Shown piece after piece: positions 2,143 to 45,770 of a stretch of 64,000 nucleotides of DNA. The position numbers and the translations under genes are program-made. The DNA is from Trypanosoma brucei (Eukaryota): contig CM000208.1 in the NCBI GenBank assembly GCA_000002445.1, positions 3,808,001-3,872,000 of the forward strand, in the 5' to 3' direction. Under the pieces are notes generated by a model. That model saw only the letters and a program-made list of their open reading frames with translations. It did no database searches and had not been told where the DNA came from. The first letter of the stretch is position 1. Each line of letters opens with the position of its first letter.

Positions 2143-2351
2143 ATGTTCAAAACACACAAAAAAATGTAAACAAGCACTTACTAATTATCAAAATTAAAAA
2201 TCACATTTTCACAATAGAAACAAGTAACGGAAAAAAATGCTGAAAAATAAAAAATATACACCCAAACCTACAAAAACACTTTATCACTCTACAACAGACA
2301 GGAAGAAAAAAGACACCTAGTTTGTAAGGAATGTTGTGGCCTGGAAACACT

Positions 2352-2465
2352 GTCGCGCATGATGTGCTCAACTGGAATTACCATCTGAACGCGGGATACC
2401 GCAAGTCGATGAATTAATGCTACGTGCATTACCTCCGCTGTTACTCGTATCACTGACACCGCGAC
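2352..2465 (+). ncRNA. Candidate box C/D snoRNA, first in each repeat unit. Equivalent copies at +1208, +2416 and +3624.
   Basis: The 5' flank GTCGCG precedes a box C-like ATGATGT (2359-2365). Box D' CTGA is at 2385-2388, a C'-like GATGAA at 2409-2414 and box D CTGA at 2453-2456. The 3' flank CGCGAC (2460-2465) is the exact reverse complement of the 5' flank GTCGCG (2352-2357), giving the classic C/D terminal stem. Length is about 114 nt. Confidence 0.35.
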
Positions 2466-2495
2466 TGTTTCCTTTGTTTTGAGGCCCTCAGGGAA

Positions 2496-2580
2496 GCGCG
2501 TGATGACATACAAAGTTGTTTGCACATTTTCCGACACACCGTGAGCGAGTTACAATATTACAAGAACACCATCTGAATTT
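2496..2580 (+). ncRNA. Candidate box C/D snoRNA, second in each repeat unit.
   Basis: Perfect box C TGATGA at 2501-2506 (gcgcgTGATGAcat) and box D CTGA at 2573-2576 (caccatCTGAatt), 67 nt apart, which is a typical trypanosomatid C/D snoRNA size. No clear terminal stem. Confidence 0.3.
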
Positions 2581-3211
2581 TTGTCGACTCTACCCCTTCC
2601 TCCTTATTGGTGATGGCACAATGCATCTGTTCCCTTCTTTTATTTGGACCCTCTTCTTCCTACCCACTTACATACATGCACACACGTCTCTGTGTAAATG
2701 TATGCAGATATGTATACACACACACACTCTCTCTCTCTCCCGAATGCCGAGGCCTTTCTGTCTGTTCCCGGTCGGTGATTAGCAGTGCGTCTTCCACCTA
2801 ACGACCCTTGATGATTATGATACGATGCCTGGTCAACAGAACTATACTACACCAAATTTAGTAAATGAGACCACAGTGCAGGCAGAGGCTGGCAATCCTC
2901 GTCCGCCAGCAGCCGCCCCGGGCAGGATGGCGCCCGTGTCCCTGGCGTGACGTCTAATCGGTGCGGCGAGATGTGCTGACACTTTTGCGTCGCGTGATGA
3001 GGTGCAGAAGGCATGTCGCCGCTACGGCGGTGGCTCGCGTAGCCGTCTGGCTGTGCGCGTACTGTGAGCTACTGTACTCCATGGGTGAACAATCTCTGAT
3101 GACGTGTCACAGCGGGAGCAGTGTCGCTATGCGTTCCCGTCAGTAATACGGGCTAACGGTACGAAGCACGTGCGAGAGGTAAGTGGAAATCCGCTGCCTG
3201 TGAACACAGCA

Positions 3212-3300
3212 GGTACACATGATGCACACAATTCAATACTCACTCTGAACATCACTTGTCAGGAGGAATGTGATAACATGCACCACCAGCTGATCACATC
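3212..3300 (+). ncRNA. Candidate box C/D snoRNA, third in each repeat unit.
   Basis: Box C-like ATGATGC at 3219-3225, D' CTGA at 3245-3248, C'-like TGTGATAA at 3269-3276 and D CTGA at 3290-3293 (ccagCTGAtcac). Additional perfect TGATGA boxes at about 2809, 2995 and 3097 in the same unit lack an obvious CTGA partner. Confidence 0.25.
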
Positions 3301-6300
3301 CACGTGCATACATGCACACATGCCCTATCCCGCTTCCTTCACTTTTTCACACAGTCTGTGTGTCTGTGTGTCTGTGTGTGTGTGTGTACACCCGCATGTT
3401 TGTATACTTGTTTGTGACCATGCCAATGGACCCTTAATTACTCTATTTTTTTTTTCTCGTGGGCGGCTTTGAGACTGAGTGTGCGTCCTTAATACGCGAA
3501 CAACAAGCAAGGCCTCGTTGTTTGCTAGTTTGTAAGGAATGTTGTGGCCTGGAAACACTGTCGCGCATGATGTGCTCAACTGGAATTACCATCTGAACGC
3601 GGGATACCGCAAGTCGATGAATTAATGCTACGTGCATTACCTCCGCTGTTACTCGTATCACTGACACCGCGACTGTTTCCTTTGTTTTGAGGCCCTCAGG
3701 GAAGCGCGTGATGACATACAAAGTTGTTTGCACATTTTCCGACACACCGTGAGCGAGTTACAATATTACAAGAACACCATCTGAATTTTTGTCGACTCTA
3801 CCCCTTCCTCCTTATTGGTGATGGCACAATGCATCTGTTCCCTTCTTTTATTTGGACCCTCTTCTTCCTACCCACTTACATACATGCACACACGTCTCTG
3901 TGTAAATGTATGCAGATATGTATACACACACACACTCTCTCTCTCTCCCGAATGCCGAGGCCTTTCTGTCTGTTCCCGGTCGGTGATTAGCAGTGCGTCT
4001 TCCACCTAACGACCCTTGATGATTATGATACGATGCCTGGTCAACAGAACTATACTACACCAAATTTAGTAAATGAGACCACAGTGCAGGCAGAGGCTGG
4101 CAATCCTCGTCCGCCAGCAGCCGCCCCGGGCAGGATGGCGCCCGTGTCCCTGGCGTGACGTCTAATCGGTGCGGCGAGATGTGCTGACACTTTTGCGTCG
4201 CGTGATGAGGTGCAGAAGGCATGTCGCCGCTACGGCGGTGGCTCGCGTAGCCGTCTGGCTGTGCGCGTACTGTGAGCTACTGTACTCCATGGGTGAACAA
4301 TCTCTGATGACGTGTCACAGCGGGAGCAGTGTCGCTATGCGTTCCCGTCAGTAATACGGGCTAACGGTACGAAGCACGTGCGAGAGGTAAGTGGAAATCC
4401 GCTGCCTGTGAACACAGCAGGTACACATGATGCACACAATTCAATACTCACTCTGAACATCACTTGTCAGGAGGAATGTGATAACATGCACCACCAGCTG
4501 ATCACATCCACGTGCATACATGCACACATGCCCTATCCCGCTTCCTTCACTTTTTCACACAGTCTGTGTGTCTGTGTGTCTGTGTGTGTGTGTGTACACC
4601 CGCATGTTTGTATACTTGTTTGTGACCATGCCAATGGACCCTTAATTACTCTATTTTTTTTTTCTCGTGGGCGGCTTTGAGACTGAGTGTGCGTCCTTAA
4701 TACGCGAACAACAAGCAAGGCCTCGTTGTTTGCTAGTTTGTAAGGAATGTTGTGGCCTGGAAACACTGTCGCGCATGATGTGCTCAACTGGAATTACCAT
4801 CTGAACGCGGGATACCGCAAGTCGATGAATTAATGCTACGTGCATTACCTCCGCTGTTACTCGTATCACTGACACCGCGACTGTTTCCTTTGTTTTGAGG
4901 CCCTCAGGGAAGCGCGTGATGACATACAAAGTTGTTTGCACATTATCCGACACACCGTGAGCGAGTTACAATATTACAAGAACACCATCTGAATTTTTGT
5001 CGACTCTACCCCTTCCTCCTTATTGGTGATGGCACAATGCATCTGTTCCCTTCTTTTATTTGGACCCTCTTCTTCCTACCCACTTACATACATGCACACA
5101 CGTCTCTGTGTAAATGTATGCAGATATGTATACACACACACACTCTCTCTCTCTCCCGAATGCCGAGGCCTTTCTGTCTGTTCCCGGTCGGTGATTAGCA
5201 GTGCGTCTTCCACCTAACGACCCTTGATGATTATGATACGATGCCTGGTCAACAGAACTATACTACACCAAATTTAGTAAATGAGACCACAGTGCAGGCA
5301 GAGGCTGGCAATCCTCGTCCGCCAGCAGCCGCCCCGGGCAGGATGGCGCCCGTGTCCTTGGCGTGACGTCTAATCGGTGCGGCGAGATGTGCTGACACTT
5401 TTGCGTCGCGTGATGAGGTGCAGAAGGCATGTCGCCGCTACGGCGGTGGCTCGCGTAGCCGTCTGGCTGTGCGCGTACTGTGAGCTACTGTACTCCATGG
5501 GTGAACAATCTCTGATGACGTGTCACAGCGGGAGCAGTGTCGCTATGCGTTCCCGTCAGTAATACGGGCTAACGGTACGAAGCACGTGCGAGAGGTAAGT
5601 GGAAATCCGCTGCCTGTGAACACAGCAGGTACACATGATGCACACAATTCAATACTCACTCTGAACATCACTTGTCAGGAGGAATGTGATAACATGCACC
5701 ACCAGCTGATCACATCCACGTGCATACATGCACACATGCCCTATCCCGCTTCCTTCACTTTTTCACACAGTCTGTGTGTCTGTGTGTCTGTGTGTGTGTG
5801 TGTACACCTGCATGTTTGTATACTTGTTTGTGACCATGCCAATGGACCCTTAATTACTCTATTTTTTTTTTCTCGTGGGCGGCTTTGAGACTGAGTGTGC
5901 GTCCTTAATACGCGAACAACAAGCAAGGCCTCGTTGTTTGCTAGTTTGTAAGGAATGTTGTGGCCTGGAAACACTGTCGCGCATGATGTGCTCAACTGGA
6001 ATTACCATCTGAACGCGGGATACCGCAAGTCGATGAATTAATGCTACGTGCATTACCTCCGCTGTTACTCGTATCACTGACACCGCGACTGTTTCCTTTG
6101 TTTTGAGGCCCTCAGGGAAGCGCGTGATGACATACAAAGTTGTTTGCACATTTTCCGACACACCGTGAGCGAGTTACAATATTACAAGAACACCATCTGA
6201 ATTTTTGTCGACTCTACCCCTTCCTCCTTATTGGTGATGGCACAATGCATCTGTTCCCTTCTTTTATTTGGACCCTCTTCTTCCTACCCACTTACATACA

Positions 6301-7258
6301 TGCACACACGTCTCTGTGTAAATGTATGCAGATATGTATACACACACACTCTCTCTCTCTCTCCCGAATGCCGAGGCCTTTCTGTCTGTTCCCGGTCGGT
6401 GATTAGCAGTGCGTCTTCCACCTAACGACCCTTGATGATTATGATACGATGCCTGGTCAACAGAACTATACTACACCAAATTTAGTAAATGAGACCACAG
6501 TGCAGGCAGAGGCTGGCAATCCTCGTCCGCCAGCAGCCGCCCCGGGCAGGATGGCGCCCGTGTCCCTGGCGTGACGTCTAATCGGTGCGGCGAGATGTGC
6601 TGACACTTTTGCGTCGCGTGATGAGGTGCAGAAGGCATGTCGCCGCTACGGCGGTGGCTCGCGTAGCCGTCTGGCTGTGCGCGTACTGTGAGCTACTGTA
6701 CTCCATGGGTGAACAATCTCTGATGACGTGTCACAGCGGGAGCAGTGTCGCTATGCGTTCCCGTCAGTAATACGGGCTAACGGTACGAAGCACGTGCGAG
6801 AGGTAAGTGGAAATCCGCTGCCTGTGAACACAGCAGGTACACATGATGCACACAATTCAATACTCACTCTGAACATCACTTGTCAGGAGGAATGTGATAA
6901 CATGCACCACCAGCTGATCACATCCACGTGCATACATGCACACATGCCCTATCCCGCTTCCTTCACTTTTTCACACAGTCTGTGTGTCTGTGTGTCTGTC
7001 TGTGTGTGTGTACACCTGCATGTTTGTATACTTGTTTGTGACCATGCCAATGGACCCTTAATTACTCTATTTTTTTTTTCTCGTGGGCGGCTTTGAGACT
7101 GAGTGTGCGTCCTTAATACGCGAACAACAAGCAAGGCCTCGTTGTTTGCTAGTTTGTAAGGAATGTTGTGGCCTGGAAACACTGTCGCGCATGATGTGCT
7201 CAACTGGAATTACCATCTGAACGCGGGATACCGCAGGATGATGTCTTGAAACTATACT

Positions 7259-7289
7259 CTTTTCCTGCGCCTTTTTATTTTTCTCTTAG
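7259..7289 (+). promoter_or_regulatory. Polypyrimidine tract plus AG: putative trans-splice acceptor region for the downstream gene.
   Basis: tttcctgcgcctttttatttttctcttAG lies immediately upstream of the ATG at 7308. This is the standard kinetoplastid spliced-leader addition signal architecture. Confidence 0.4.
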
Positions 7290-7307: not shown

Positions 7308-8861
7308 ATGTCTGGAGAAAACTTGAATAAATCGATGAGTGCTGAAAGGGTTGCTGGGTCGTTGTCCGTAGGTCATGGCGTAGATCATGGTTCTCGTAAA
7401 CGAGCTCGTTCTATTTGTTTGAAGCAAAATTTTTCTCGACTTTTGTACCAGATGGTTATTCGTCAGCTGCATCATGATGGTTTTCTTGCTGCTGCATCCG
7501 CTGTCGCAGACGCTACTAACGTTGTTGTTCCGAGGCTGGAGGAAAATGCTGATCGATTGTCGAAGGTGGTTAGTTGGGGTCTCGCTGTGGAGGAGAGCAG
7601 TGTGGTTGAAATTGAGAACTTCTTCAAATTTGAAGTTGTTGAGCGATATTTGAGTGCATCGAGGGTATATATGCCGCTACACCTATCAGAGAGTGCAAGG
7701 GTGGGATCCATGGCGTATCGTATGCGAGAGCGTTTTATTACCTCATCTCTAGGTGGTGTTGTTCGACGTCTGGCATTTTCTTCGGATGGTTCGCTTATTG
7801 CATGTGGGGGAACTGATGGTCTGTGTGCCATTTTTTCTTTGAATACAATTGAGGATCTCAGTGCCCTTGAAGAAGTGCGGCAGGAGCAGCACTTTAACGG
7901 ACTTGATGGGAGTAACCCTAGTAATATTGGGGTGGGCAACGCAAGCAACAAAATTACGGAGCTCGCTGAGGCCCGTCGCTTTCATGAACACACGCACTCT
8001 GTGGAGGCTATTTCCTTTCATCCAACCAAGCAGCTTCTTGTCACTGGAGGTTTCGAGGGAGATTTGTACATTCGTGACTACAGTCAACCAGACAACCACG
8101 TTGTACACAAATTACGTGATGCTTTTCCTGTACGTTCCGCCGTTTTTCATCCCTCTGGAGAATACGTGCTGTACGCTACAGATCACACCACGCCAAGGCT
8201 TCTGAACCTCCGGAGTGGATCAGTGGTGGCCCCTGTGGCACACTCCGATAACGCTGCAGCAACCTGCGTAACCGCGATGGCAGGAGGAAAGGGAGTAGCT
8301 CGTGGTGCTTCTCAGAGGAAAGGCTGTGACGCAGGCCACGCGGCTGCTCTATGTGACGTGGATTTTTCTCCCGACGGCCGGACCTTCGCCTCATGCGGTC
8401 TAGACGGATCACTGATTGTGTATGACGGAGTCAGTAGTCGCATTGTGGCGAAGGTAAACAATGCACACTCAAGTGTTCCGGTAACCAGCGTAAAATTTAG
8501 TCGAACTGGTAATATTCTCCTCACCGCGGGCATGGACTCAGTTGCTCGGCTGTGGGACCTGCGGCGTGGGGATGGTGGGTGGGGCTGTACAGAAGTTATG
8601 TCGTTCGGCGAGCCTGGAAAATGTAATCACCGCAGCTTCCGTGCTTCTTTCAGCTGCAACGAAAGCCACGTCCTCTCCCAGGACACTTCCCTGTTTGCCA
8701 TTCACGCACACTGCGTCTACACAGGGGATACCTCATACACACTTACGGTGCCCAACCACATGCAGCGGGGCTTTGCCCCTGCGCCTTTTAGTAATGTAGT
8801 CGTTAGCGGTGGCGACGACTCACGTATGCGGCTATGGACACCGGCATGGACCACGGCGTGA
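7308..8861 (+). CDS. CSTF50: WD40-repeat protein resembling cleavage stimulation factor 50-kDa subunit (CstF50).
   Basis: N-terminal segment LYQMVIRQLHHDGFLAAASAVADAT resembles the CstF50 dimerisation domain (human [21 protein letters not shown], recalled from memory). Several WD repeats follow, e.g. LLTAGMDSVARLWDLRRG and VVVSGGDDSRMRLWT. ATG verified at 7308. Confidence 0.6.
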   Translation: MSGENLNKSMSAERVAGSLSVGHGVDHGSRKRARSICLKQNFSRLLYQMVIRQLHHDGFLAAASAVADATNVVVPRLEENADRLSKVVSWGLAVEESSVVEIENFFKFEVVERYLSASRVYMPLHLSESARVGSMAYRMRERFITSSLGGVVRRLAFSSDGSLIACGGTDGLCAIFSLNTIEDLSALEEVRQEQHFNGLDGSNPSNIGVGNASNKITELAEARRFHEHTHSVEAISFHPTKQLLVTGGFEGDLYIRDYSQPDNHVVHKLRDAFPVRSAVFHPSGEYVLYATDHTTPRLLNLRSGSVVAPVAHSDNAAATCVTAMAGGKGVARGASQRKGCDAGHAAALCDVDFSPDGRTFASCGLDGSLIVYDGVSSRIVAKVNNAHSSVPVTSVKFSRTGNILLTAGMDSVARLWDLRRGDGGWGCTEVMSFGEPGKCNHRSFRASFSCNESHVLSQDTSLFAIHAHCVYTGDTSYTLTVPNHMQRGFAPAPFSNVVVSGGDDSRMRLWTPAWTTA

Positions 8862-9834: not shown

Positions 9835-12800
9835 ATGTCTGGTCTGACTTCACACAACATCTCAGCTACATCTATTCGTGTGCATGGAATCACACGTGAA
9901 CGTGATATGTGCGTTTTCTGCCGGAAGCGCTCTTCGCCACCACCTAATGATCCGCTGGCACCAGTATTTGCCTTCTTCTCGCTGGTTGACTGCCGTCACT
10001 ACGCGTGCCAACCGTGTGCTCTCGTGCATTGCGACAACGCTGGGCGGCATATACGTTGCCCCGCGTGTTGCGCGATTTCTCGTCTCGCGCAGTCGGGCCG
10101 CCGTCGCGGAAACCGTGTGGATGAACGAGTGCCAATAGATGACGGCGTATCGTCGGCGGCATCGCAGAGCTCAAAAAGAGTGTTGGCCCCACCGAAGCGT
10201 TCACTCTCCGTCACTGACCGGCGGAGACGTACGTCATCTGTTCAGTTCTCAACAAACTTAACATCGCCCAGTGGGCAGAAGGAGGCCCTCAGCACCGGCG
10301 GCTCTAACACGTCATTGACACTTGCCGCGGTCGGCCGGCTGCCAACCGACCCTAACTATAGCAAAGGCAAAGGGGATGAAGGAGGAACCGTTGCGGCCTT
10401 CAGCGAGGAGGAACGAATATCGGTCGATTTGTACACCATTAAGGGCACCGCTGCAAAACGCCCGCGTCGCACAACAGCTGAACGTGCCCGCAGTCAGCCG
10501 CTTCCTCCGGCAGAATATCGCTATTTGCCACCACCAACGCCGTTCCATCGCCCGCCGCCGCTAGTAATTCACACGATTGAGGAGGAAGAAGAGGTTGCGG
10601 CTTCATTCCAACTCATTGTAAGGGAAATCGAGCAAACTATCGCTGCTACGCTAGTAAAGGAGGCAGATGAGCGTGACACAATCGGAATTGCGGAAGCACA
10701 CCGCCGCAACGTCCTTTCAAAATTACGTGAAGAGGATGAAAGAAAGAGATTTGCAGCACATCACGAACTCAATGACGAGTTTTCTGATGCCAAATTAAGT
10801 CCTCGCACAACAACAAACGCATCAGACGGCCAAGTCAGTGAAACATCCGATGAAGGAATGTCAGAACTCTCAACACAACAAGACTCAATTCAAAAGAACT
10901 ACAAACAACCCATAGATCAAAAAGCAATGATCACAAAGGAAAGAACAGGAACACCTACCGCAGCGGAAAAACAAACAAAACACCAACAACAAACAATCAC
11001 CAAACAGAACACTGAAGAAGAAAAAAAAGAAGCAAAAAATGAAAACAATAAGGAGAGTAAAAAAAAACGGCGTGAGCGTGTTGAGGTTGCTACATGGGAT
11101 TCGGAACAACAGCTGCGGCTCTTTGAACAACTTATGGATCTCGCTCGTGATGAACAACAGCACCGTGCCAAAATACAGCGTGACGAAACTCGTATGCATG
11201 CGGAAATGGAACGAAGTGAGGCTAGCGATGTTGCAACAATCAAGGCTGCAATGGAGGCCATGGCAGAGTCAGCACGTAGAGAGCAGGAGGAATTATTGCG
11301 TGATGAGAAGGAAGAACGCTACACCATCCAAGAGGATGAGCGACGGCTACGGCGCAACATAACGCGACAGAGCGCGGAGCTCTCACTCGACGTCAGCATG
11401 CAGCATGTGCAACAACGTGGTAAGGAGGACGCACAAAGGGAATTGGATATGCTAAGGGTTGCACTGGAATCAACTGCTGTTGAAACCACTTCGCGCGCTC
11501 GCCTCAACCTCATTGTAACGGAGGAACTGAGGGCACGTGATTCCCTGTGCAGTGACGAAGCAAGTGAACGAGCCATGCACGCAGCAGAAGAGCGACGTGA
11601 GCGTGTTGAGGTTGCTACATGGGATTCGGAACAACAGCTGCGGCTCTTTGAACAACTTATGGATCTCGCTCGTGATGAACAACAGCACCGTGCCAAAATA
11701 CAGCGTGACGAAACTCGTATGCATGCGGAAATGGAACGAAGTGAGGCTAGCGATGTTGCAACAATCAAGGCTGCAATGGAGGCCATGGCAGAGTCAGCAC
11801 GTAGAGAGCAGGAGGAATTATTGCGTGATGAGAAGGAAGAACGCTACACCATCCAAGAGGATGAGCGACGGCTACGGCGCAACATAACGCGACAGAGCGC
11901 GGAGCTCTCACTCGACGTCAGCATGCAGCATGTGCAACAACGTGGTAAGGAGGACGCACAAAGGGAATTGGATATGCTAAGGGTTGCACTGGAATCAACT
12001 GCTGTTGAAACCACTTCGCGCGCTCGCCTCAACCTCATTGTAACGGAGGAACTGAGGGCACGTGATTCCCTGTGCAGTGACGAAGCAAGTGAACGAGCCA
12101 TGCACGCAGCAGAAGAGCGACGTGAGCGTGTTGAGGTTGCTACATGGGATTCGGAACAACAGCTGCGGCTCTTTGAACAACTTATGGATCTCGCTCGTGA
12201 TGAACAACAGCACCGTGCCAAAATACAGCGTGACGAAACTCGTATGCATGCGGAAATGGAACGAAGTGAGGCTAGCGATGTTGCAACAATCAAGGCTGCA
12301 ATGGAGGCCATGGCAGAGTCAGCACGTAGAGAGCAGGAGGAATTATTGCGTGATGAGAAGGAAGAACGCTACACCATCCAAGAGGATGAGCGGCGGCTAC
12401 GGCGCAACATAACACGACAGAGCGCGGAGCTCTCACTCGACGTCAGCATGCAGCATGTGCAACAACGTGGTAAGGAGGACGCACAAAGGGAATTGGATAT
12501 GCTAAGGGTTGCACTGGAATCAACTGCTGTTGAAACCACTTCGCGCGCTCGCCTCAACCTCATTGTAACGGAGGAACTGAGGGCACGTGATTCCCTGTGC
12601 AGTGACGAAGCAAGTGAACGAGCCATGCACGCAGCAGAAGAGCGACGTGAGCGTGTTGAGGTTGCTACATGGGATTCGGAACAACAGCTGCGGCTCTTTG
12701 AACAACTTATGGATCTCGCTCGTGATGAACAACAGCACCGTGCCAAAATACAGCGTGACGAAACTCGTATGCATGCGGAAATGGAACGAAGTGAGGCTGA

Positions 12801-15081
12801 CGGAATCTTGGCATGCGGTGCTCAGAGTGAAGGAGCCGATTCTTTTGAAGTTGCTTCTTCGGGGTGTGATTGTGTTTTTCGTCCTTCTGGTGCTGATTGT
12901 GCCTCTTTCTCTCCGTATGTTTGTCGAGGGGGTGGTGTTTTGCCGCTTGATGTTGAAATTCCTGTTGGTTTGGCGTATTCAGCGCATGGCAGCACATCAG
13001 CTGAGGTTATTTCAGTTGACTATACCTCTTTTTTGCCTATTGTTGGCAGTGACGCTCAGGGTGAATCATCTTTGTGGAATACTCTTGACGATGATGGTGG
13101 CGTTGTTTTTGGTGATGTTTGCGCGGGTGGGGACGATGTTGGCATTGATGTAAATGACGTTGAGAGTGTGCACATCAGCAGGGGATGTTCAACCGTACTT
13201 GACGCCGGTGGCGTTGGCGCAACTGCTGAAGTATATGCTTTAGATGAAAAGTGGCGTGATGGGACTGCGGTAAGCGCTGAGCCCCCTCGCATTCCAGCAA
13301 GTAGGATTTGTCGTACTTGCTTCTCCACTGATACGAGTAGATGTGCGCGTTGTGGCACAATGGTGTGCTCTCATTGTATTCCTTCAGGTTCGTTTCGTCA
13401 GTGCTGTACGTTACATCACCTTACCATTATCAACAAGAGGTGCAGGGTAATGACTGAAACGAGGGTGCACGCTAGGTGGGAGTGCCGGAGGTTGTTTAGG
13501 CAGTTCCGACTCGAGCAACGGATGAGAAGGCGGAGAGAAAATGTGGTAAACACTCGAGGGTTTGATGTAGTCGTTCTTACACCGGAGCAAAAGGGTGACA
13601 ACTCTAACCTGCACGAGGTTAAGACGCCTCCTAGAGTCACTCGTCGATTCTTAAACCAAGAAAATGACAGTGAGGAAGATGCTGCATGGAAATCACATTA
13701 TCTTGAGTCATGGCCATCTGATTCGGGGCAGATGCCACCTTGCGGACTCAAACAAGAGCGGTTTGATGAATTTAATGATGCCGAAAATAGTATGAACCTA
13801 ACGGCAGATAATGAGCCCAAGACCGAAAGAAAAAGAGCCACAGCATTCTTTGTACCATTAGGTAATAGCGCCGAACCAAGGAGGCCCAAACCTCCGACAC
13901 CTAGAAACTATGTTCCCGGAATTATCCACAATTGTACGAAAGCTCCGCAGAGCAAGCGAGCAGTTTCAAGAATGCGTTTCCGGCGCCTTCGGAGGCAAAA
14001 CGCAACGGGTAATACTAAGAACACAACGTTGAATTCTGCTGCTGCAGGAAGAAATGTACAGGAACATCGCGCCGCAAGCAGTTCCAAGCCGCGGCCACAA
14101 GAAAGCTGGGCACGGCAAAGACCTGTGCAGCGTCAGGGTGCCTTTATTACGGCAGACCCCGTGAGAGGGATCACGAGAAGCGGCCCAACGTCCAATTCCT
14201 GGCGCCGCCGGAATTTCCGCACGAAAAGCCGGTCACCAGCTGGGTATGGCGGCAAAGCAAGTGCTTGCAATTTCCACGGTGATCGATGCGGGGACGCCAT
14301 GGCACTGGGACGCACATATTACGACGGTAACCCCGTGAGGAGTAAGGGGTTGGCTTACGTTCTGGACGAAGAGCCACCACAGAGAGGATATGAGCCGACG
14401 CCACCAACCAGACTGCAGAGCAACCGGGTAGTCAAATCGGGGGTACACAGCGGCGAAGAACATACAAGGATGGGGTGTCAACACGAGTGGGAGCCTGACC
14501 AGCAATGTGTACCATTATTTGAGGAGTTTCATGCGTCTTCCTCGACCCCACCCTGGCGGCCTCCGTTCTCGCGTGACCCACCACCTCCGCGCCGCAACCA
14601 CAGGAACACAAACATAGGAGGTCGAACACACCGTACGCTAGCCCCCTTTCCAGCACGCCAACGCCTTTGCCACCCGCGGCAACGCAGTGCCGCCGACCTC
14701 ACACGCAACGCAAGTCCCGGGCAGGCGTGCAGCAGATTCCATTACAATCCACTGGACGACGTTGATCGTGCTGCCTTCGTTGGTGGACCGCGCGGAGCAC
14801 AACGGCAACCGCCTACGAGTGTAGCGGAGCCATGTATTACCGTGCATCTCTTTCCGCCTTCTTCGTACGGAGGGGGAGCGGGAACTTCTGGACGGCATCC
14901 GTTGCGGGGTCCAACCGCAAGGAGACACTCAAGTCGTGCCCACAGGCCCTCACCAGCTCGAGCGGCTTCACCTCCGTGGCGAACAGACCTAAACACCCCG
15001 TTCATTTGTCCCCCATGGAACGCGAACCGGCCTGACACGTTTATTGCAAAGCCGTATACCCGCACCACGTGCAGAAGGTAG
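9835..15081 (+). CDS. Large RING-finger protein (1748 aa) with internal 175-aa charged tandem repeats and a low-complexity C-terminal half.
   Basis: N-terminal C3HC4-type RING signature (CVFC...CRHYACQPC...CPACC). About 3.3 perfect copies of a 175-aa E/R/Q-rich helical repeat. A second Cys cluster CRTCFSTDTSRCARCGTMVCSHCIPSGSFRQCC. R/P/S-rich tail. A 5.2-kb ORF cannot arise by chance. Confidence 0.6.
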   Translation: MSGLTSHNISATSIRVHGITRERDMCVFCRKRSSPPPNDPLAPVFAFFSLVDCRHYACQPCALVHCDNAGRHIRCPACCAISRLAQSGRRRGNRVDERVPIDDGVSSAASQSSKRVLAPPKRSLSVTDRRRRTSSVQFSTNLTSPSGQKEALSTGGSNTSLTLAAVGRLPTDPNYSKGKGDEGGTVAAFSEEERISVDLYTIKGTAAKRPRRTTAERARSQPLPPAEYRYLPPPTPFHRPPPLVIHTIEEEEEVAASFQLIVREIEQTIAATLVKEADERDTIGIAEAHRRNVLSKLREEDERKRFAAHHELNDEFSDAKLSPRTTTNASDGQVSETSDEGMSELSTQQDSIQKNYKQPIDQKAMITKERTGTPTAAEKQTKHQQQTITKQNTEEEKKEAKNENNKESKKKRRERVEVATWDSEQQLRLFEQLMDLARDEQQHRAKIQRDETRMHAEMERSEASDVATIKAAMEAMAESARREQEELLRDEKEERYTIQEDERRLRRNITRQSAELSLDVSMQHVQQRGKEDAQRELDMLRVALESTAVETTSRARLNLIVTEELRARDSLCSDEASERAMHAAEERRERVEVATWDSEQQLRLFEQLMDLARDEQQHRAKIQRDETRMHAEMERSEASDVATIKAAMEAMAESARREQEELLRDEKEERYTIQEDERRLRRNITRQSAELSLDVSMQHVQQRGKEDAQRELDMLRVALESTAVETTSRARLNLIVTEELRARDSLCSDEASERAMHAAEERRERVEVATWDSEQQLRLFEQLMDLARDEQQHRAKIQRDETRMHAEMERSEASDVATIKAAMEAMAESARREQEELLRDEKEERYTIQEDERRLRRNITRQSAELSLDVSMQHVQQRGKEDAQRELDMLRVALESTAVETTSRARLNLIVTEELRARDSLCSDEASERAMHAAEERRERVEVATWDSEQQLRLFEQLMDLARDEQQHRAKIQRDETRMHAEMERSEADGILACGAQSEGADSFEVASSGCDCVFRPSGADCASFSPYVCRGGGVLPLDVEIPVGLAYSAHGSTSAEVISVDYTSFLPIVGSDAQGESSLWNTLDDDGGVVFGDVCAGGDDVGIDVNDVESVHISRGCSTVLDAGGVGATAEVYALDEKWRDGTAVSAEPPRIPASRICRTCFSTDTSRCARCGTMVCSHCIPSGSFRQCCTLHHLTIINKRCRVMTETRVHARWECRRLFRQFRLEQRMRRRRENVVNTRGFDVVVLTPEQKGDNSNLHEVKTPPRVTRRFLNQENDSEEDAAWKSHYLESWPSDSGQMPPCGLKQERFDEFNDAENSMNLTADNEPKTERKRATAFFVPLGNSAEPRRPKPPTPRNYVPGIIHNCTKAPQSKRAVSRMRFRRLRRQNATGNTKNTTLNSAAAGRNVQEHRAASSSKPRPQESWARQRPVQRQGAFITADPVRGITRSGPTSNSWRRRNFRTKSRSPAGYGGKASACNFHGDRCGDAMALGRTYYDGNPVRSKGLAYVLDEEPPQRGYEPTPPTRLQSNRVVKSGVHSGEEHTRMGCQHEWEPDQQCVPLFEEFHASSSTPPWRPPFSRDPPPPRRNHRNTNIGGRTHRTLAPFPARQRLCHPRQRSAADLTRNASPGQACSRFHYNPLDDVDRAAFVGGPRGAQRQPPTSVAEPCITVHLFPPSSYGGGAGTSGRHPLRGPTARRHSSRAHRPSPARAASPPWRTDLNTPFICPPWNANRPDTFIAKPYTRTTCRR
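11068..12800 (+). repeat. In-frame tandem repeats of 525 bp (175 aa), about 3.3 copies, inside the RING protein CDS.
   Basis: The unit starts RRERVEVATWDSEQQLRLFEQLMDLARDEQQHRAKIQRDETRMHAEMERSEASD and ends DEASERAMHAAEE. Period 525 is seen in ORF-track recurrences (11537/12062/12587; 11844/12369). Nucleotide copies are identical apart from 1-2 SNPs. The antisense ORFs in this span are repeat artefacts. Confidence 0.9.
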
Positions 15082-24352: not shown

Positions 24353-25555
24353 ATGAGCGAAAAGCTCCCCGTTGTGCTAGACAATGGGAGTGGCTTTCTC
24401 AAGTGTGGTTTTGCGGGGTCAAACTTTCCTGAAGTCTTCTTTCGGACCGCCGTCGGCCGCCCCGTTCTCCGCCAGACTAAAGTGAGTGAAGGCAGGAGTA
24501 GCAAAAGAAAAGATACACAAGTGGATCCACTGACGAAAGACCTTGTATTGGGTGATGAATGTAATGGTGCTCATCATCTTCTAGACATGACCTTTCCAAT
24601 ACACAATGGCGTCATCCAGAATATGGACGACATGCGTTATCTGTGGAAGCATGCTTTTCACAATTTGCTTTCTATTGAACCAGAGGATCACAGCTTACTA
24701 ATATCGGAGGCACCGCTCTTTAGTCACAAAGACCGCGTTAAGTTGTACGAGGTCATGTTCGAGGAATTCAAATTTCCATTCGTACAGTCCACACCGCAGG
24801 GAGTCCTCTCGCTGTTCTCCAACGGCCTGCAGACGGGAGTTGCAGTCGAGTGCGGCGAGTGCGTGTCGCATTGCACACCCATTTTTGAGGGTTATACAAT
24901 CCCCAAGGCGAACAGACGGGTAGACTTAGGTGGGCGGAATATCACCGAGTTTCTTGTCAGGCTTATGCAGCGGCGCGGATATAGTTTTAACCAAAGCAGT
25001 GATTTTGAAACGGTGAGGTGTATTAAGGAGCGGTTCTGCTACGCTGCTGTGGACCCCAAACTGGAGCAGCGACTAGCGCTTGAGACAACGGTGCTAGAAA
25101 AGACATTCCTACTACCGGATGGTTCCAGTTGCAGCATCGGACAGGAGCGCTTCGAGGCGACGGAGGCGCTGTTTCAACCACGTTTAATAGACGTCGAGTG
25201 CGAGGGCATTTCCTCCCAGCTCTGGAATTGCATTCAGGCCACAGATATTGACGTGCGGTTTGCTTTGTATTCGCACGTTGTACTTTCCGGTGGCTCAACC
25301 ATGTTCCCCGGTTTTCCCAGTCGTATTGAGCGCGACATGCGAGCCGCCTATTCCGAGAGAATAGTTAAGGGGGACCCAGAGAGGCTCTCTCGTTTTCCAC
25401 TGTGTGTTGAAGATCCACCTAGGCGTCGCTGGATGTCGTTTTTAGGTGGAGCAGCCCTTGCGGCGGTGACGGCTGGCAATCACGACATGTGGCTTAGTAA
25501 GAAGGAGTGGGATGAAGGCGGTGCTTCTGCCATACAGGCCCGATTTGGGGTTTAG
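24353..25555 (+). CDS. Actin-related protein (ARP).
   Basis: N-terminus LPVVLDNGSGFLKCGFAGSNFPEVFFRTAVGRP matches actin [32 protein letters not shown]. C-terminal LSGGSTMFPGFPSRIERDM matches actin LSGGTTMYPGIADRMQKEI. Confidence 0.75.
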   Translation: MSEKLPVVLDNGSGFLKCGFAGSNFPEVFFRTAVGRPVLRQTKVSEGRSSKRKDTQVDPLTKDLVLGDECNGAHHLLDMTFPIHNGVIQNMDDMRYLWKHAFHNLLSIEPEDHSLLISEAPLFSHKDRVKLYEVMFEEFKFPFVQSTPQGVLSLFSNGLQTGVAVECGECVSHCTPIFEGYTIPKANRRVDLGGRNITEFLVRLMQRRGYSFNQSSDFETVRCIKERFCYAAVDPKLEQRLALETTVLEKTFLLPDGSSCSIGQERFEATEALFQPRLIDVECEGISSQLWNCIQATDIDVRFALYSHVVLSGGSTMFPGFPSRIERDMRAAYSERIVKGDPERLSRFPLCVEDPPRRRWMSFLGGAALAAVTAGNHDMWLSKKEWDEGGASAIQARFGV

Positions 25556-25988
25556 ATCCCTTGCAAGTGTTCCTGTGGCCACATCGAAGATGGGGATCGA
25601 GTTGAGATTCTCCGCTCAGTGTGTGAAGGTGTCCACTCTTTGTTTTCGCCCACTCCTCTTTACAACACCCCTTAGCTGCGGTGATATTAGTGCCCACTTT
25701 ACTTAAAGTGATTAATGTCGTGTTATTCCCTTCCTTAAATCAGCTTTACCTCTTCCAGCTTCATCCCCACCTGCTTGTTTACACCTTTTCATTCAATGCA
25801 CACACACACCCCACACACCCATACACACTACTTTTAAGTCGTGGCTAGTGAAGTGAAGGAGGTGCAGCATCTCCGTCAAGGGGGGGAAAATTGAGGGCAC
25901 GCTAACAAGTGCCGTTCTACGCTGCAACATAACACAAAGGCACGTGTGCAACAGCATTTACCGCGGTTGCAGGGGTGCACAGGAAACC

Positions 25989-26612
25989 ATGGGTAAGAAA
26001 AAGAACACGGCGATGCACGCCATTAAAACTGTTTTGATGAAGGAAAAGAACCTTGCACAGAAAAAGAAGCGGGAAATGGATAGCCATCACGAAGTACCGG
26101 AGCAGGTGCTAACGAAGGTGAAGGATACTGCTGCTGTGCGCTTTCAGCGGAACCAATTAACCGTCGCAGCGCCGCTGCAAACGAACATGTTTCTCTCCTA
26201 CAACAAGAGTCTTGGACCGCCATTCCATATTTGGCTTGACACAAACTTCATAAACTTCTCCATGCAGAACAAGATTGAAATTGTGGAAGGATTGATGGAC
26301 TGCATGCTTGCGAAAGTCATCCCGTGTGTATGTGATTGCGTGATGGCAGAATTAGAAAAACTCGGAAAGAAATTTCGGATCGCGCTGAAAATCGCACGTG
26401 ACAAACGTTTCAAGCGTTTGACATGTGACGGCAAGTACGCGGATGACTGTGTTGTACGGACTGTAACACAACATCCAATTTACATCGTGGCAACATGCGA
26501 CCAGGAGCTTAAGCGGCGTCTGCGTAAAATACCTGGCGTACCCATCATGTACATTTCAAAGCATCGCTACACCATTGAGCGGTTACCAGAGGTCTATGGA
26601 GCTCCAGCTTAA
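25989..26612 (+). CDS. FCF1: rRNA-processing PIN-domain protein FCF1/UTP24.
   Basis: HIWLDTNFINFSMQNKIEIVEGLMDCMLAKVIPCVCDCVMAELEKLGKKFRIALKIARDKRFKRLTCDGKYADDCVVRTVTQHPIYIVATCDQELKRRLRKIPGVPIMYI is near-collinear with yeast and human Fcf1. The track start at 25944 is GTG; the ATG followed by GKKKN is at 25989. Confidence 0.85.
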   Translation: MGKKKNTAMHAIKTVLMKEKNLAQKKKREMDSHHEVPEQVLTKVKDTAAVRFQRNQLTVAAPLQTNMFLSYNKSLGPPFHIWLDTNFINFSMQNKIEIVEGLMDCMLAKVIPCVCDCVMAELEKLGKKFRIALKIARDKRFKRLTCDGKYADDCVVRTVTQHPIYIVATCDQELKRRLRKIPGVPIMYISKHRYTIERLPEVYGAPA

Positions 26613-32804: not shown

Positions 32805-33992
32805 ATGATAGAGAGTAACTTGCTCTCGCAGGTTAACACCGCTTCCCCCCTTCCCACCTTTATGGAAGTGGAGCTTGTGAACTCCATCAATACCACCGTG
32901 GGAAAAGCCTTCCAGTTCGCTCATGTCTTTCTCGCTGAAAAGTGCGACTATTTGGCAGCGCTTTTACCCTATAACTCGGAAATTTGGTTGGTTCTTCATG
33001 CATTACTTGAACACCGCCTACTTTTCCACGCCGATACGTCCTTTGCCGAGATGATGTTCAGCCTCTGTCGTGGGACAATCATTTCGCCATCACGACCGCT
33101 ACCCAGTCAAGGGAGGCTGTCATGGCTGCTGCGTGGCCCGCCACCCGTCCCCCCTTTAGAAGCCCGAATGATGGACACACCCGCAGCGACAGACTCTCGT
33201 GCAGTAGGCGAAGCCATGGTAGGTATGAAGGCAGGGGAAATTGCAGCAGCGGATAGGGCCCCATACGGGCACCTGAAATTCCGACCCCTTACCAACCGAC
33301 AGAAGTACATTACACTCTTTCTCCTCACGGTGAAGCCGTACCTACAGCAGCGCCTTGCTTCATGGTATGAGGCAAACAAAGACGCACAAGTGGCGGGAGA
33401 ATCACAGTCTGGTAGCGCTTTGAGTCGGCAAACCCTCGGGGCACGCTTGAAACAACTCGCTCTGCAGCTCTACCCAGCGCTCCACGCCGGTTGGGAAGGC
33501 CTCAATTTAGCCTTCAAGATCCTCTTCCTTCTAGAACTGACGCCTTATACAGCACCGCTCCACCGGATTTTTAGTATTGTGCTTCGTCGCCCCACAGGTG
33601 ATGACCTCATCGCTGCTTCAAATCCGCGTGCTCAGGCTGCCCTAATGCTTGGCCGTGTATTGATTGTCGTGCTTCTCCTTGGTTTCCGTCTAATGGAATT
33701 CAGTGGCAACACGGGTGGGGCTAGTCCTTCTCATGCCAACAGCGATGACCTGGCCATCCCACGCCCGCCTGAGTGGGGCGTCGATGTGGTAGTCCCACCG
33801 GGCACACCGGACCCTCAGCCGGGTGTCTGTCCCGTTTGTGAGCGACCAGTTACCAATGCCGCGGTGTGTACCGTGAGTGGGGTGGTGGGATGCTATCCCT
33901 GTCTCACACAATTCGCACGGGAGAAGAATGCCTGCCCGGTTACACGGGCACCCATGTCGTTGGAGTGCGTTCGACGCATTTATGAGTGCTGA
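32805..33992 (+). CDS. PEX12: Peroxin PEX12-like protein (glycosomal import RING peroxin).
   Basis: C-terminal degenerate RING VCPVCERPVTNAAVCTVSGVVGCYPCLTQFAREKNACPVTRAPMS parallels human PEX12 [42 protein letters not shown] (recalled from memory). The N-terminal two-thirds is hydrophobic, consistent with the Pex2/Pex12 domain. Confidence 0.7.
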   Translation: MIESNLLSQVNTASPLPTFMEVELVNSINTTVGKAFQFAHVFLAEKCDYLAALLPYNSEIWLVLHALLEHRLLFHADTSFAEMMFSLCRGTIISPSRPLPSQGRLSWLLRGPPPVPPLEARMMDTPAATDSRAVGEAMVGMKAGEIAAADRAPYGHLKFRPLTNRQKYITLFLLTVKPYLQQRLASWYEANKDAQVAGESQSGSALSRQTLGARLKQLALQLYPALHAGWEGLNLAFKILFLLELTPYTAPLHRIFSIVLRRPTGDDLIAASNPRAQAALMLGRVLIVVLLLGFRLMEFSGNTGGASPSHANSDDLAIPRPPEWGVDVVVPPGTPDPQPGVCPVCERPVTNAAVCTVSGVVGCYPCLTQFAREKNACPVTRAPMSLECVRRIYEC

Positions 33993-42464: not shown

Positions 42465-42572
42465 CGCACAGCATTAACTGCTGCTATTGCCTCATAAACT
42501 TTCGAGAAGTGCAACCTCAGCGTACAATTCCGTGCAGGTGTGTGAATTGGTGAGGGGAGAGTGCTGTTGGGT

Positions 42573-45702: not shown

Positions 45703-45770
45703 GCTGCTTTCTTTTCTTTTTATTTCTTCTTTTTTTGTTTTGCTTCCTATCTTCATGTCACTACAACCAC
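45703..45770 (+). promoter_or_regulatory. Long polypyrimidine tract upstream of the second presequence ORF: putative splice acceptor region.
   Basis: ggctgctttcttttctttttatttcttctttttttgttttgcttcctatcttc is followed by A-rich sequence and AGs before the ATG at 45892. Confidence 0.3.

What the first reader, a model, noticed from the sequence alone, without database searches (positions are those of the whole stretch)
9835..15081. A 1748-aa ORF combines a RING finger, perfect 175-aa charged repeats and a second Cys cluster, a TRIM-like architecture
The N-terminal C3HC4 RING is followed by about 3.3 exact copies of a 175-aa Glu/Arg/Gln-rich helical module. That module is a likely coiled-coil or single-alpha-helix spacer. 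Next comes a second cysteine array (CRTCFSTDTSRCARCGTMVCSHC...QCC) and then a long Arg/Pro/Ser-rich tail. RING, helical region and a further Zn-binding module echo the E3-ligase logic of TRIM proteins, but in a novel order. Perfect nucleotide-level repeats in a kinetoplastid protein are also the hallmark of immunodominant tandem-repeat antigens.
Basis: partly seen in the sequence, partly recalled or inferred. Interest (0 to 1): 0.6.

Follow-up and report, generated by a model that had tools for sequence, protein, structure and literature searches.

The report
Trypanosome p197 kinetoplast-tether gene, repeats collapsed
This ORF is p197 of Trypanosoma brucei, the already well-studied giant filament protein that ties the flagellar basal body to the mitochondrion so the mitochondrial genome is inherited, and the 3.3 repeats seen here are an assembly-collapsed version of an array of about 26-35 copies.

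Summary
There is a 1748-aa ORF at 9835-15081 (+). It has a C3HC4 RING-type signature at aa 26-78. It has 3.3 copies of a 525-nt/175-aa unit, identical in protein and differing by 1-3 synonymous bases. It has a second eight-Cys cluster at aa 1159-1191.

The gene is not new. [quoted passage not shown] The published truncation numbering fits a 1748-aa model, and the NheI-per-repeat map matches.

Published experiments show three things. The N-terminal 365 aa bind TAC65 on the mitochondrial outer membrane. The C-terminal 334-520 aa bind the basal body. The alpha-helical repeats act as a spacer that sets the distance between the two. The real array has about 26-35 copies, so 3.3 is an assembly collapse.

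The "TRIM-like E3" reading is only partly supported. Both zinc modules are conserved but fall below Pfam thresholds, the domain order is not TRIM, and no ligase activity is known.

Two small additions came out of this work. The B-box-like module is conserved in Trypanosoma and Leishmaniinae, lies outside both mapped binding fragments, and is not discussed in the papers I read. T. congolense also carries the 175-aa array, contrary to published statements.

Verdict: already known, low interest.

The parts
9835..15081 (+). Complete ORF of p197 (Tb927.10.15750) as in the collapsed reference model: 1748 aa, 197.7 kDa
   Evidence: ORF and mass. The best hits are T. b. gambiense fragments at 98% identity, and the L. 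donovani orthologue is named 'Tripartite attachment complex protein 197'. The paper's numbering (deltaC1383 leaves 365 aa, deltaN1228 leaves 520 aa) fits 1748 aa.
9910..10068 (+). RING-type C3HC4 zinc-finger signature, aa 26-78. It sits in the most conserved block of the protein (aa 40-89, 84% mean identity to the T. brucei residue)
   Evidence: Pattern match in every orthologue or fragment that retains an intact N-terminus. All 8 ligands plus C66 are invariant in alignment A1. Pfam zf-C3HC4 scores 13.5-14.4 bits against a gathering score of 21. The best PDB profile hits are the RNF113A and ZNF183-like RINGs, E 0.02-0.085. PMC9546609 calls aa 26-78 a conserved zinc finger of unknown relevance.
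9835..10929 (+). N-terminal 365 aa: the fragment shown experimentally to be sufficient for anchoring at the mitochondrial outer membrane through TAC65
   Evidence: PMC9546609: the deltaC1383-HA construct, co-IP with TAC65-myc, and release into the soluble fraction on TAC65 RNAi. Coordinates are derived from the 1748-aa numbering.
11068..12798 (+). Tandem array of 3.30 copies of a 525-nt/175-aa alpha-helical unit (aa 412-988): the collapsed remnant of the spacer domain of about 26-35 copies
   Evidence: Searches give the boundaries and show 1-3 synonymous differences. Composition is 41% charged and 23% hydrophobic, with 0 Pro and 1 Gly. There is one NheI site per copy, at 11221, 11746 and 12271, as used for the published Southern blot. 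For the real copy number.
12799..13308 (+). Poorly conserved linker rich in acidic residues, Gly, Val and Cys (aa 989-1158), between the repeats and the second zinc module
   Evidence: Translation. This is the lowest conservation segment, 0.21. The same frame is kept in T. b. gambiense, with several substitutions.
13309..13419 (+). Second zinc-binding module, B-box-like (aa 1159-1195): C-x2-C-x8-C-x2-C-x4-C-x2-C-x8-CC(-x2-HH), followed by a predicted long helix
   Evidence: The eight Cys are the only invariant columns in alignment A2. 9 of 12 orthologue segments hit Pfam zf-B_box. The best is L. seymouri at 23.8 bits against a gathering score of 24.1, and the T. brucei segment gives no hit. 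The PDB profile matches IAP-type RINGs at E 0.006. The AF2 model has mean pLDDT 75.6, two short strands and then a helix over segment residues 56-99. The module lies outside both mapped binding fragments.
13519..15078 (+). C-terminal 520 aa: the fragment shown experimentally to be sufficient for association with the mature and pro-basal body. It contains the conserved motifs at aa 1330-1359 (nt 13822-13911) and aa 1711-1721 (nt 14965-14997)
   Evidence: PMC9546609: deltaN1228-HA localises to basal bodies and deltaC334 does not. The conserved blocks come from a 14-sequence alignment.

Best explanation
The ORF is p197, the single known component of the cytosolic exclusion-zone filaments of the tripartite attachment complex (TAC) of Trypanosoma brucei.

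[quoted passage not shown] The N-terminal 365 aa, which include the RING-type zinc finger, dock onto the peripheral outer-membrane protein TAC65. The C-terminal 334-520 aa attach to the base of the mature and pro-basal body. [quoted passage not shown] Basal-body separation can therefore pull the replicated kinetoplast DNA apart.

These steps are shown by published experiments. The sequence here matches that gene.

My own inferences are three. (a) The 3.3 copies in this window are an assembly collapse of an array of about 26-35 copies. (b) The two zinc modules most likely serve as rigid protein-protein docking or self-association modules rather than as catalytic E3 elements. (c) The repeat arose by amplification of a single-copy segment of the ancestral helical region. 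It is kept homogeneous by concerted evolution in African trypanosomes (T. brucei and T. congolense).
For: Identity:
- Hits are 98% identical T. b. gambiense fragments, plus orthologues through to Leishmania. One of these is named 'Tripartite attachment complex protein 197'.
- The computed mass is 197.7 kDa.
- TriTrypDB is described as giving 197 kDa and 3.5 repeats of 175 aa, and the gene id is Tb927.10.15750.
- The truncation numbering fits 1748 aa.
- NheI cuts once per repeat and XhoI cuts downstream, as in the published Southern strategy.
- The flanking snoRNA cluster TB10Cs3 places the window on T. brucei chromosome 10.

Function (literature):
- PMC9546609 gives TAC65 binding, basal-body binding, and a distance proportional to p197 length.
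- Copy number is about 26 by long reads and 34.5 by Southern blot.
- KMP11 binds the repeat domain.

Conservation:
- Mean identity to the T. brucei residue is 69% for aa 1-110, against 24% for the repeat region. Conserved C-terminal motifs are present.

Repeat origin:
- The unit matches single-copy segments of the T. cruzi, T. melophagium, T. conorhini and T. rangeli orthologues.
- It matches a 175-aa-period array in T. congolense. Those copies are 85-100% identical to each other but only 60-63% identical to the T. brucei unit.
Against: Nothing found here contradicts the identification. Four limits apply.
- The exact 1748-aa protein is not on record in the contig index, so the strain (presumably TREU927) is inferred.
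- No reads are available to demonstrate the collapse in this particular assembly.
- The docking role I assign to the two zinc modules is inference. The authors themselves state that the relevance of the zinc finger is unknown.
- The AF2 model of the N-terminus was poor, pLDDT 40.
Confidence: 0.95

Rival explanations
1. p197 is, in addition to or instead of being a structural tether, a TRIM-like RING E3 ubiquitin or SUMO ligase. The RING would recruit an E2, the helical region would dimerise, and the B-box-like module would regulate activity or higher-order assembly.
For: The C3HC4 spacing fits the RING consensus, and all eight ligands are invariant across kinetoplastids. The weak best PDB matches are genuine RINGs, RNF113A and ZNF183L1. 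UniRef names for many orthologues are 'RING-type domain-containing protein', and one is 'B box-type domain-containing protein'. 9 of 12 orthologues give sub-threshold or near-threshold zf-B_box hits. The predicted helix directly after the B-box-like module echoes the TRIM order of B-box then coiled coil.
Against: The domain order is RING, about 330 aa of linker, the repeat array, a 170-aa linker, then the B-box-like module. This is not the RBCC order. No Pfam RING or B-box model reaches its gathering score for the T. brucei protein. A profile of the N-terminus retrieves only p197 orthologues and no known E3 family from 1.84 billion proteins. None of the four p197 papers searched for 'ubiquitin', 'RING' or 'zinc' reports an E3 activity. 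The N-terminus is far more conserved than a generic RING needs to be (84% over aa 40-89), which fits a fixed binding partner. The residue just after the last ligand is C, H or N rather than the Arg or Lys 'linchpin' of active RINGs. This last point is read from the alignment and rests on my own knowledge of RING E3s.
Confidence: 0.1
2. The repeat array matters mainly as an immunodominant tandem-repeat B-cell antigen, as for many kinetoplastid repeat proteins.
For: There is only the general rule that trypanosomatid tandem-repeat proteins are often antigenic (own knowledge; it is echoed in PMC2830943, listed). The copies are near-identical.
Against: None of the titles or abstracts of the 13 listed papers citing Tb927.10.15750 concerns antigenicity. 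The protein is an intracellular cytoskeletal filament present at one or two structures per cell. Experiments explain the repeats as a length-setting spacer. Antigenicity would be a by-product and not a function.
Confidence: 0.08
3. The long ORF is an artefact: two genes fused by a frameshift or a mis-assembly.
For: The repeat region is certainly mis-assembled in copy number. The T. b. gambiense models are split into two partial genes at a gap, and the C-terminal fragment is frameshifted near its end.
Against: Single full-length ORFs with the same RING N-terminus, B-box-like module and SPPWRTD C-terminus exist in T. melophagium, T. cruzi, T. conorhini, Leishmania, Leptomonas and Novymonas. Doubly tagged myc-p197-HA behaves as one molecule in vivo.
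Confidence: 0.01

Closest known systems
p197 / TAC197 (Tb927.10.15750), exclusion-zone filament protein of the tripartite attachment complex of Trypanosoma brucei
   Same: It is the same gene. It has the same length (1748 aa), the same mass (197.7 kDa), the same 175-aa repeats, the same zinc finger at aa 26-78, the same restriction map, and the same chromosome 10 context.
   Different: Nothing differs. The window carries the collapsed reference version (3.3 copies) of an array measured at about 26-35 copies.
TRIM / RBCC E3 ligases
   Same: Both contain a RING-type C3HC4 signature, a B-box-like Cys cluster and a long alpha-helical region. In both, a helix follows the B-box-like module.
   Different: The order is RING, helical repeats, then B-box, with long linkers, rather than a compact N-terminal RING, B-box, coiled coil. 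Both zinc modules are below Pfam thresholds. No E3 activity is known. The helical region is a tandem-repeat spacer of hundreds of nanometres, not an antiparallel dimer of about 17 nm (the TRIM figure is from own knowledge).
Molecular-ruler or spacer filament proteins built from long helical repeats (for example giant coiled-coil tethers such as golgins, pericentrin/AKAP450-type centrosomal linkers, and nebulin or titin as rulers)
   Same: A single very large polypeptide has different binding modules at its two ends. Its length sets the distance between two cellular structures. Shortening it shortens the distance proportionally.
   Different: There is no sequence relationship. The p197 spacer is made of near-identical 175-aa units kept homogeneous at the DNA level. 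It is kinetoplastid-specific.
B-box type 1 zinc finger (Pfam PF00643)
   Same: The first six ligands, C-x2-C-x8/9-C-x2-C-x4-C-x2-C, have B-box1 spacing. Leishmaniine orthologues score 18-23.8 bits on profile positions 2-29.
   Different: The last ligand pair is an invariant CC instead of H-x(n)-H. The His residues that follow are not conserved (T. conorhini, P0012). The T. brucei sequence gives no Pfam hit. Fold searches were uninformative.

Membership tests
p197 (TAC exclusion-zone filament protein) orthologue group | Sequence orthology to the gene published as p197, Tb927.10.15750 | tested here: met
   Hits are 98% identical to T. b. gambiense fragments, and the L. donovani orthologue is named TAC protein 197. 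The mass is 197.7 kDa. The paper's truncation numbering fits 1748 aa. The NheI/XhoI map matches.
p197 (TAC exclusion-zone filament protein) orthologue group | Conserved N-terminal ~150 aa with a zinc finger at aa 26-78, and a conserved C-terminal ~60 aa | tested here: met
   In alignment A1, 48 columns of the first 91 residues are invariant. The SPPWRTDLN block at the C-terminus is 79% conserved.
p197 (TAC exclusion-zone filament protein) orthologue group | Central alpha-helical domain of near-identical 175-aa repeats (T. brucei) | tested here: met
   The unit has no Pro and one Gly. Helicity is taken from the literature: Phyre2 96%, and AF2/AF3 give a single helix at pLDDT 83-90.
p197 (TAC exclusion-zone filament protein) orthologue group | Localisation between basal body and outer membrane; essential for kDNA segregation | not testable with these tools
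   Literature only (PMC9546609).
RING-type zinc finger (C3HC4) | Ligand spacing C-x2-C-x(9-39)-C-x(1-3)-H-x(2-3)-C-x2-C-x(4-48)-C-x2-C | tested here: met
   The regex matches at aa 26-78 in the window protein and in every orthologue or fragment that retains an intact N-terminus.
RING-type zinc finger (C3HC4) | Ligands conserved in orthologues | tested here: met
   C26, C29, C53, H55, C58, C61, C75 and C78 are invariant in 15 sequences spanning Trypanosoma, Leishmania, Leptomonas, Phytomonas and Novymonas. The pattern is also kept in T. vivax, Angomonas and a deep unnamed homologue.
RING-type zinc finger (C3HC4) | Profile match above the curated threshold (Pfam zf-C3HC4 or relatives) | tested here: not met
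   The score is 13.5-14.4 bits against a gathering score of 21. zf-RING_5 gives about 10 bits against 27.9. There is no hit at all when the whole protein is scanned. PROSITE-derived UniRef names do say 'RING-type domain'.
RING-type zinc finger (C3HC4) | Cross-brace fold binding two zinc ions | tested here: inconclusive
   The AF2 model built on the 15-sequence alignment has mean pLDDT 40, so no fold search was attempted.
RING-type zinc finger (C3HC4) | E2 binding and ubiquitin-ligase activity | not testable with these tools
   None of the four p197 papers searched for 'ubiquitin', 'RING' or 'zinc' reports an E3 activity.
B-box zinc finger (PF00643) | Eight-ligand pattern C-x2-C-x(7-12)-C-x2-C-x4-C-x2-[CH]-x(3-6)-H-x(2-8)-H | tested here: inconclusive
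   The first six ligands fit exactly. The last pair is an invariant CC, and the following His residues are not invariant.
B-box zinc finger (PF00643) | Profile match above the gathering score (24.1 bits) | tested here: not met
   The T. brucei segment gives no hit at E<=10. The best orthologue (L. seymouri) scores 23.8 bits and L. donovani 18.1. 9 of 12 orthologues match at E<=10.
B-box zinc finger (PF00643) | B-box fold | tested here: inconclusive
TRIM / RBCC family | N-terminal order RING, then B-box(es), then coiled coil, closely spaced | tested here: not met
   The RING is at aa 26-78, the helical repeats at aa 412-988 (many more in reality), and the B-box-like module at aa 1159-1195.
Single alpha-helix (SAH) domain | Very high E/K/R content with i to i+4 charge pairing and few hydrophobic residues | tested here: inconclusive
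   The unit is 41% charged and 23% ILVMFWY, with only a weak 3.5-residue hydrophobic periodicity. This is less charged than classical SAHs (threshold from own knowledge). No dedicated SAH or coiled-coil predictor was available. The literature calls it alpha-helical and likely coiled coil.
Kinetoplastid tandem-repeat B-cell antigens | Recognition by sera of infected hosts | not tested
   None of the titles or abstracts of the 13 listed papers citing the gene id concerns antigenicity.

The most novel reading that the evidence does not exclude
The two conserved zinc modules of p197 are not mere docking pegs. The universally conserved RING would act as a ligase or ligase-like switch at the outer-membrane end. 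The B-box-like module lies outside both mapped binding fragments, next to the basal-body end of the spacer. It would drive lateral self-association of p197 filaments, as B-boxes do in TRIM lattices. The TAC tether would then carry its own assembly or turnover control, once per cell cycle.

A lesser novel point is that the 175-aa array is shared with T. congolense. It is therefore an African-trypanosome trait evolving in concert, not a T. brucei peculiarity.
Probability: 0.1. Interest if true: 0.6.

Novelty: already known. Interest (0 to 1): 0.12.

Why it matters
As a scan finding it matters little. The gene, its architecture, its repeat collapse and its mechanism are already published.

Three practical points remain.

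1. Anyone using this window should know that the ORF length is wrong by roughly 12-17 kb of missing repeats.

2. The second, B-box-like zinc module is conserved from Trypanosoma to Leishmaniinae. It lies outside both experimentally mapped binding fragments and is not discussed in the p197 papers I read. It is therefore a cheap target for mutagenesis.

3. T. congolense carries a homologous 175-aa array, 60-63% identical to the T. brucei unit. This contradicts the statement that other kinetoplastids lack the repeats. It also supplies sequence variation for modelling how the helices pack, variation that the cryo-ET preprint says is missing.

Tried and rejected
- Tandem Repeats Finder found nothing because the 525-nt period exceeds its 500-nt limit. 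I used the repeat finder and a self-offset comparison instead.
- A Pfam scan of the whole protein gave only a spurious FabA hit, summed over the repeats.
- AlphaFold2 of the N-terminal 115 aa with 15 orthologues gave pLDDT 40, which is unusable.
- The search for homologous proteins with the B-box alignment returned nothing.
- A HMMER profile of the N-terminus against 1.84 billion representatives returned only p197 orthologues, two unrelated Cys-repeat proteins (P0027, P0030) and one weak multi-stretch hit that I did not inspect (P0031). This gives no link to any E3 family.
- The exact-protein contig look-up found no record, so the strain could not be confirmed.
- A first self-BLAST for internal repeats failed because only the identity HSP is returned. 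I redid it with 100-aa windows.
- A literature search for antigenicity of this gene gave nothing specific.
- I considered that the Arg/Pro/Ser-rich tail might be an out-of-frame translation. I rejected this because its motifs align in frame with all orthologues. It is the T. b. gambiense model that is frameshifted at its end.
- The antisense 155-aa ORFs at 11319-11786 and 11844-12311 are by-products of the repeat.
Full report
**Observation**

The window holds an ATG-initiated ORF at 9835..15081 on the + strand, encoding 1748 aa. A self-comparison at an offset of 525 nt shows two runs of identity, 11071-11867 and 11890-12273. In codon register the array starts at nt 11068 (aa 412). It has three full 175-aa copies and a fourth that keeps the first 52 aa, ending at nt 12798, which makes 3.30 copies. 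The copies are identical in protein. Copy 2 differs from copy 1 at one base and copy 3 at three bases, all synonymous. "Perfect" is therefore true for the protein and nearly true for the DNA. Tandem Repeats Finder is silent only because the period exceeds its 500-nt ceiling. The repeat finder recovers the 525-nt spacing.

The N-terminus carries C26-x2-C29-x23-C53-x-H55-x2-C58-x2-C61-x13-C75-x2-C78. The second Cys array, CRTCFSTDTSRCARCGTMVCSHCIPSGSFRQCC, lies at aa 1159-1191.

**Identity**

A search of the protein database returned 21 relatives, all from kinetoplastids. These include two partial T. brucei gambiense DAL972 models at 98% identity, and orthologues in T. congolense, T. melophagium, T. 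cruzi, T. conorhini, T. rangeli, Leptomonas, Phytomonas, Novymonas and Leishmania. The L. donovani entry is named "Tripartite attachment complex protein 197".

- The computed mass of the window protein is 197.7 kDa.
- Aeschlimann et al. (PMC9546609) state that TriTrypDB gives p197 (Tb927.10.15750) a mass of 197 kDa with 3.5 tandem repeats of 175 identical residues.
- Their constructs deltaC1383 ("N-terminal 365 aa") and deltaN1228 ("C-terminal 520 aa") only add up for a 1748-aa model.
- The bioRxiv cryo-ET paper (10.1101/2023.03.06.531305) uses one NheI site per 525-nt repeat and an XhoI site downstream. The window has NheI at 11221, 11746 and 12271, and XhoI at 13510 and 13553.
- Upstream, at 2317-7270, four-plus copies of a 1208-nt unit encode the snoRNA cluster TB10Cs3 (Rfam gathering-level hits). 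This places the window on T. brucei chromosome 10.
- All ORFs of 200 aa or more that have a Pfam match lie on the + strand, as in a trypanosomatid polycistron.

The ORF is p197.

**What is known about how it works (literature, not tested here)**

- The N-terminal 365 aa suffice for anchoring at the mitochondrial outer membrane and co-precipitate with the peripheral protein TAC65.
- The C-terminal 334-520 aa are necessary and sufficient for association with the mature and pro-basal body.
- Replacing the repeat domain with shorter helical segments shortens the basal body to membrane distance in proportion to mass, and abolishes function.
- The repeat number in the reference genome is an assembly collapse. 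A long-read assembly of EATRO1125 gives about 26 copies, and a Southern blot gives 34.5 copies (68% CI 31.5-38.0). The resulting protein is estimated at 660 to more than 880 kDa.
- A single repeat is modelled by AF2 and AF3 as one continuous helix at pLDDT 83-90.
- KMP11 binds the repeat domain.

My own data agree with the collapse. The two T. b. gambiense models flank an assembly gap. They contain at least 9.4 and at least 3.8 copies, including 182-aa variants, which matches the "175-182 aa" of the preprint.

**The RING**

All eight C3HC4 ligands, plus C66, are invariant in an alignment of 15 orthologues (A1). The pattern also persists in T. vivax, Angomonas deanei and an unnamed deep homologue, P0028.

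Residues 40-89 are the most conserved stretch of the whole protein, at 84% mean identity to the T. brucei residue, against 0.24 for the repeat region.

The profile evidence is nevertheless weak.
- Pfam zf-C3HC4 scores 13.5-14.4 bits against a gathering score of 21.
- A PDB profile search gives the RINGs of ZNF183-like 1 and RNF113A at E 0.02-0.085.
- A HMMER profile of the N-terminus against 1.84 billion representatives finds 16 proteins. Fourteen are p197 orthologues or fragments. Two are unrelated Cys-repeat proteins, and one weak multi-stretch hit was not inspected. None is a recognisable E3.
- AF2 on this shallow alignment gave pLDDT 40.

Aeschlimann et al. note the zinc finger at aa 26-78 and say its relevance is unknown. 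I conclude it is a RING-type signature by ligand geometry. Membership of the RING family by profile is not met, and catalytic activity is untested.

**The second Cys cluster**

In an alignment of 12 orthologue segments (A2), the eight Cys are the only invariant columns. The spacing of the first six, C-x2-C-x8/9-C-x2-C-x4-C-x2-C, is that of a type-1 B-box. The last pair is an invariant CC rather than two His. The His residues that follow are lost in T. conorhini and in P0012.

- 9 of 12 segments hit Pfam zf-B_box. The best is L. seymouri at 23.8 bits, against a gathering score of 24.1. L. donovani scores 18.1. The Trypanosoma segments give no hit.
- One UniRef name reads "B box-type domain-containing protein".
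- A PDB profile search prefers IAP-type RINGs, at E 0.006.
- The AF2 model (pLDDT 75.6) shows two short strands followed by a 44-residue helix.

The module is present in T. vivax. It is absent from the Phytomonas Hart1 model and from P0028.

It sits at aa 1159-1195. That is outside both the N-terminal 365-aa fragment and the C-terminal 520-aa fragment with mapped activities. Neither "B-box" nor a second zinc module appears in the p197 papers I searched. This is the one piece of anatomy that seems under-described. Its function is unknown. My inference is a rigid interaction or self-association module near the basal-body end of the spacer.

**The repeat unit and its origin**

The unit is 41% charged and 23% hydrophobic, with no Pro and one Gly. 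It shows only a weak 3.5-residue hydrophobic periodicity. That is less charged than classical single-alpha-helix domains, so I leave the choice between SAH and coiled coil open.

BLAST of the unit against the orthologues shows single-copy matches in T. melophagium, T. cruzi, T. conorhini and T. rangeli, at around aa 905-1130. It also shows a tandem array with the same 175-aa period in T. congolense IL3000 (TCIL3000_10_13540, a model truncated inside the array).

A windowed self-comparison confirms internal repeats only in three cases. T. brucei/gambiense shows offsets of 175 and 182 aa. T. congolense shows offsets of 175 and 168 aa, with copies 85-100% identical to each other. P0028 shows one local duplication. 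None was found in the stercorarian trypanosomes or the leishmaniines.

Copies are thus near-identical within a species but only 60-63% identical between species, which is the pattern of concerted evolution. This contradicts the statements that orthologues in other kinetoplastids lack the repeats. Those statements rested on T. cruzi, L. major and Paratrypanosoma. The T. vivax Y486 model (1672 aa, flagged as a fragment) has at most one unit-like segment, so the age of the amplification within Salivaria is open.

**Integrity of the ORF**

The Arg/Pro/Ser-rich tail is not a frame error. Three blocks align in frame with all orthologues: TERKRATAFFVPLGNSAEPRRPKPPTPRNY (aa 1330-1359, 79% conserved), PCITVHLFP, and SPPWRTDLN (aa 1711-1721, 79%). 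It is the T. b. gambiense C-terminal fragment that shifts frame just before this last motif. The gene is single, not a fusion.

**Comparison with the known, and verdict**

The TRIM analogy fails on domain order and on profile thresholds. It also has no functional support, and the antigen idea is untested. The feature is an already characterised gene, so I rate novelty as "already known" and interest as low.

The residual value lies in three points: the collapse caveat, the undiscussed B-box-like module, and the T. congolense repeats. The most novel reading not excluded is that the RING and the B-box-like module give the tether ligase-like or self-assembly control. I put this at about 10%.

Noticed in passing
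window 2317-7270 (+): There are four perfect copies and a partial fifth of a 1208-nt tandem unit. Each copy encodes six snoRNAs at Rfam gathering level (snoTBR12, snoTBR6, snoTBR4, TB10Cs3H2, snoTBR2, TB10Cs3H1). This is the known T. brucei chromosome 10 snoRNA cluster TB10Cs3. The 122-aa and 100-aa ORFs listed there are artefacts of the repeat.
   Followed up: yes
P0003 (T. congolense IL3000 TCIL3000_10_13540), aa 435-1037: The T. congolense p197 orthologue carries at least 3.5 copies of a 175-aa repeat homologous to the T. brucei unit. Identity is 60-63% between species and 85-100% among its own copies. The papers I read state that other kinetoplastid orthologues lack the repeats.
   Followed up: partly
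window 13309-13419 (aa 1159-1195): The conserved eight-Cys B-box-like module lies outside both experimentally mapped binding fragments of p197 (aa 1-365 and aa 1229-1748). It is not mentioned in the p197 papers I searched. It is absent from the Phytomonas Hart1 model and from a deep unnamed homologue (P0028).
   Followed up: partly
P0002 (T. b. gambiense DAL972 C-terminal fragment), last ~20 aa: The gambiense model reads ...RRHSSVPTGPHQLERLHLRGEQT where the window reads ...RRHSSRAHRPSPARAASPPWRTD. This looks like a +1 frame difference. The window's frame is the one conserved in all orthologues, so the gambiense model is probably frameshifted or truncated.
   Followed up: partly
window 11319-11786 and 11844-12311 (-): Two identical 155-aa antisense ORFs lie inside the p197 repeats. 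They are a mechanical by-product of the repeated sequence and give no evidence of a gene.
   Followed up: no
window 57890-58750 and 59126-62836 (+): A full receptor-type adenylate cyclase (two periplasmic-binding-protein-like ectodomain modules plus a cyclase domain) is preceded by a 286-aa ORF. That ORF matches only the C-terminal half of the ectodomain module, so it is probably a gene fragment or pseudogene.
   Followed up: no
window 44001-46000: GC content drops to 0.40, against about 0.50 elsewhere. The dip lies between the MBOAT-family ORF (42561-44402) and a 201-aa ORF with no Pfam hit. It is probably a long intergenic or UTR region.
   Followed up: no
window 7308-8861, 24353-25555, 25944-26612, 32805-33992, 51620-52444 (+): The neighbours on the same strand are ordinary housekeeping genes by Pfam: WD40 with a CSTF1 dimerisation domain, an actin-family protein, Fcf1/PIN, Pex2/Pex12, and a TBP-fold protein. 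Also present are SURP, a protein kinase, MBOAT, PDZ, cation-efflux, RMD1-3/TPR and lipase-3 ORFs. Nothing among them is functionally linked to p197.
   Followed up: partly
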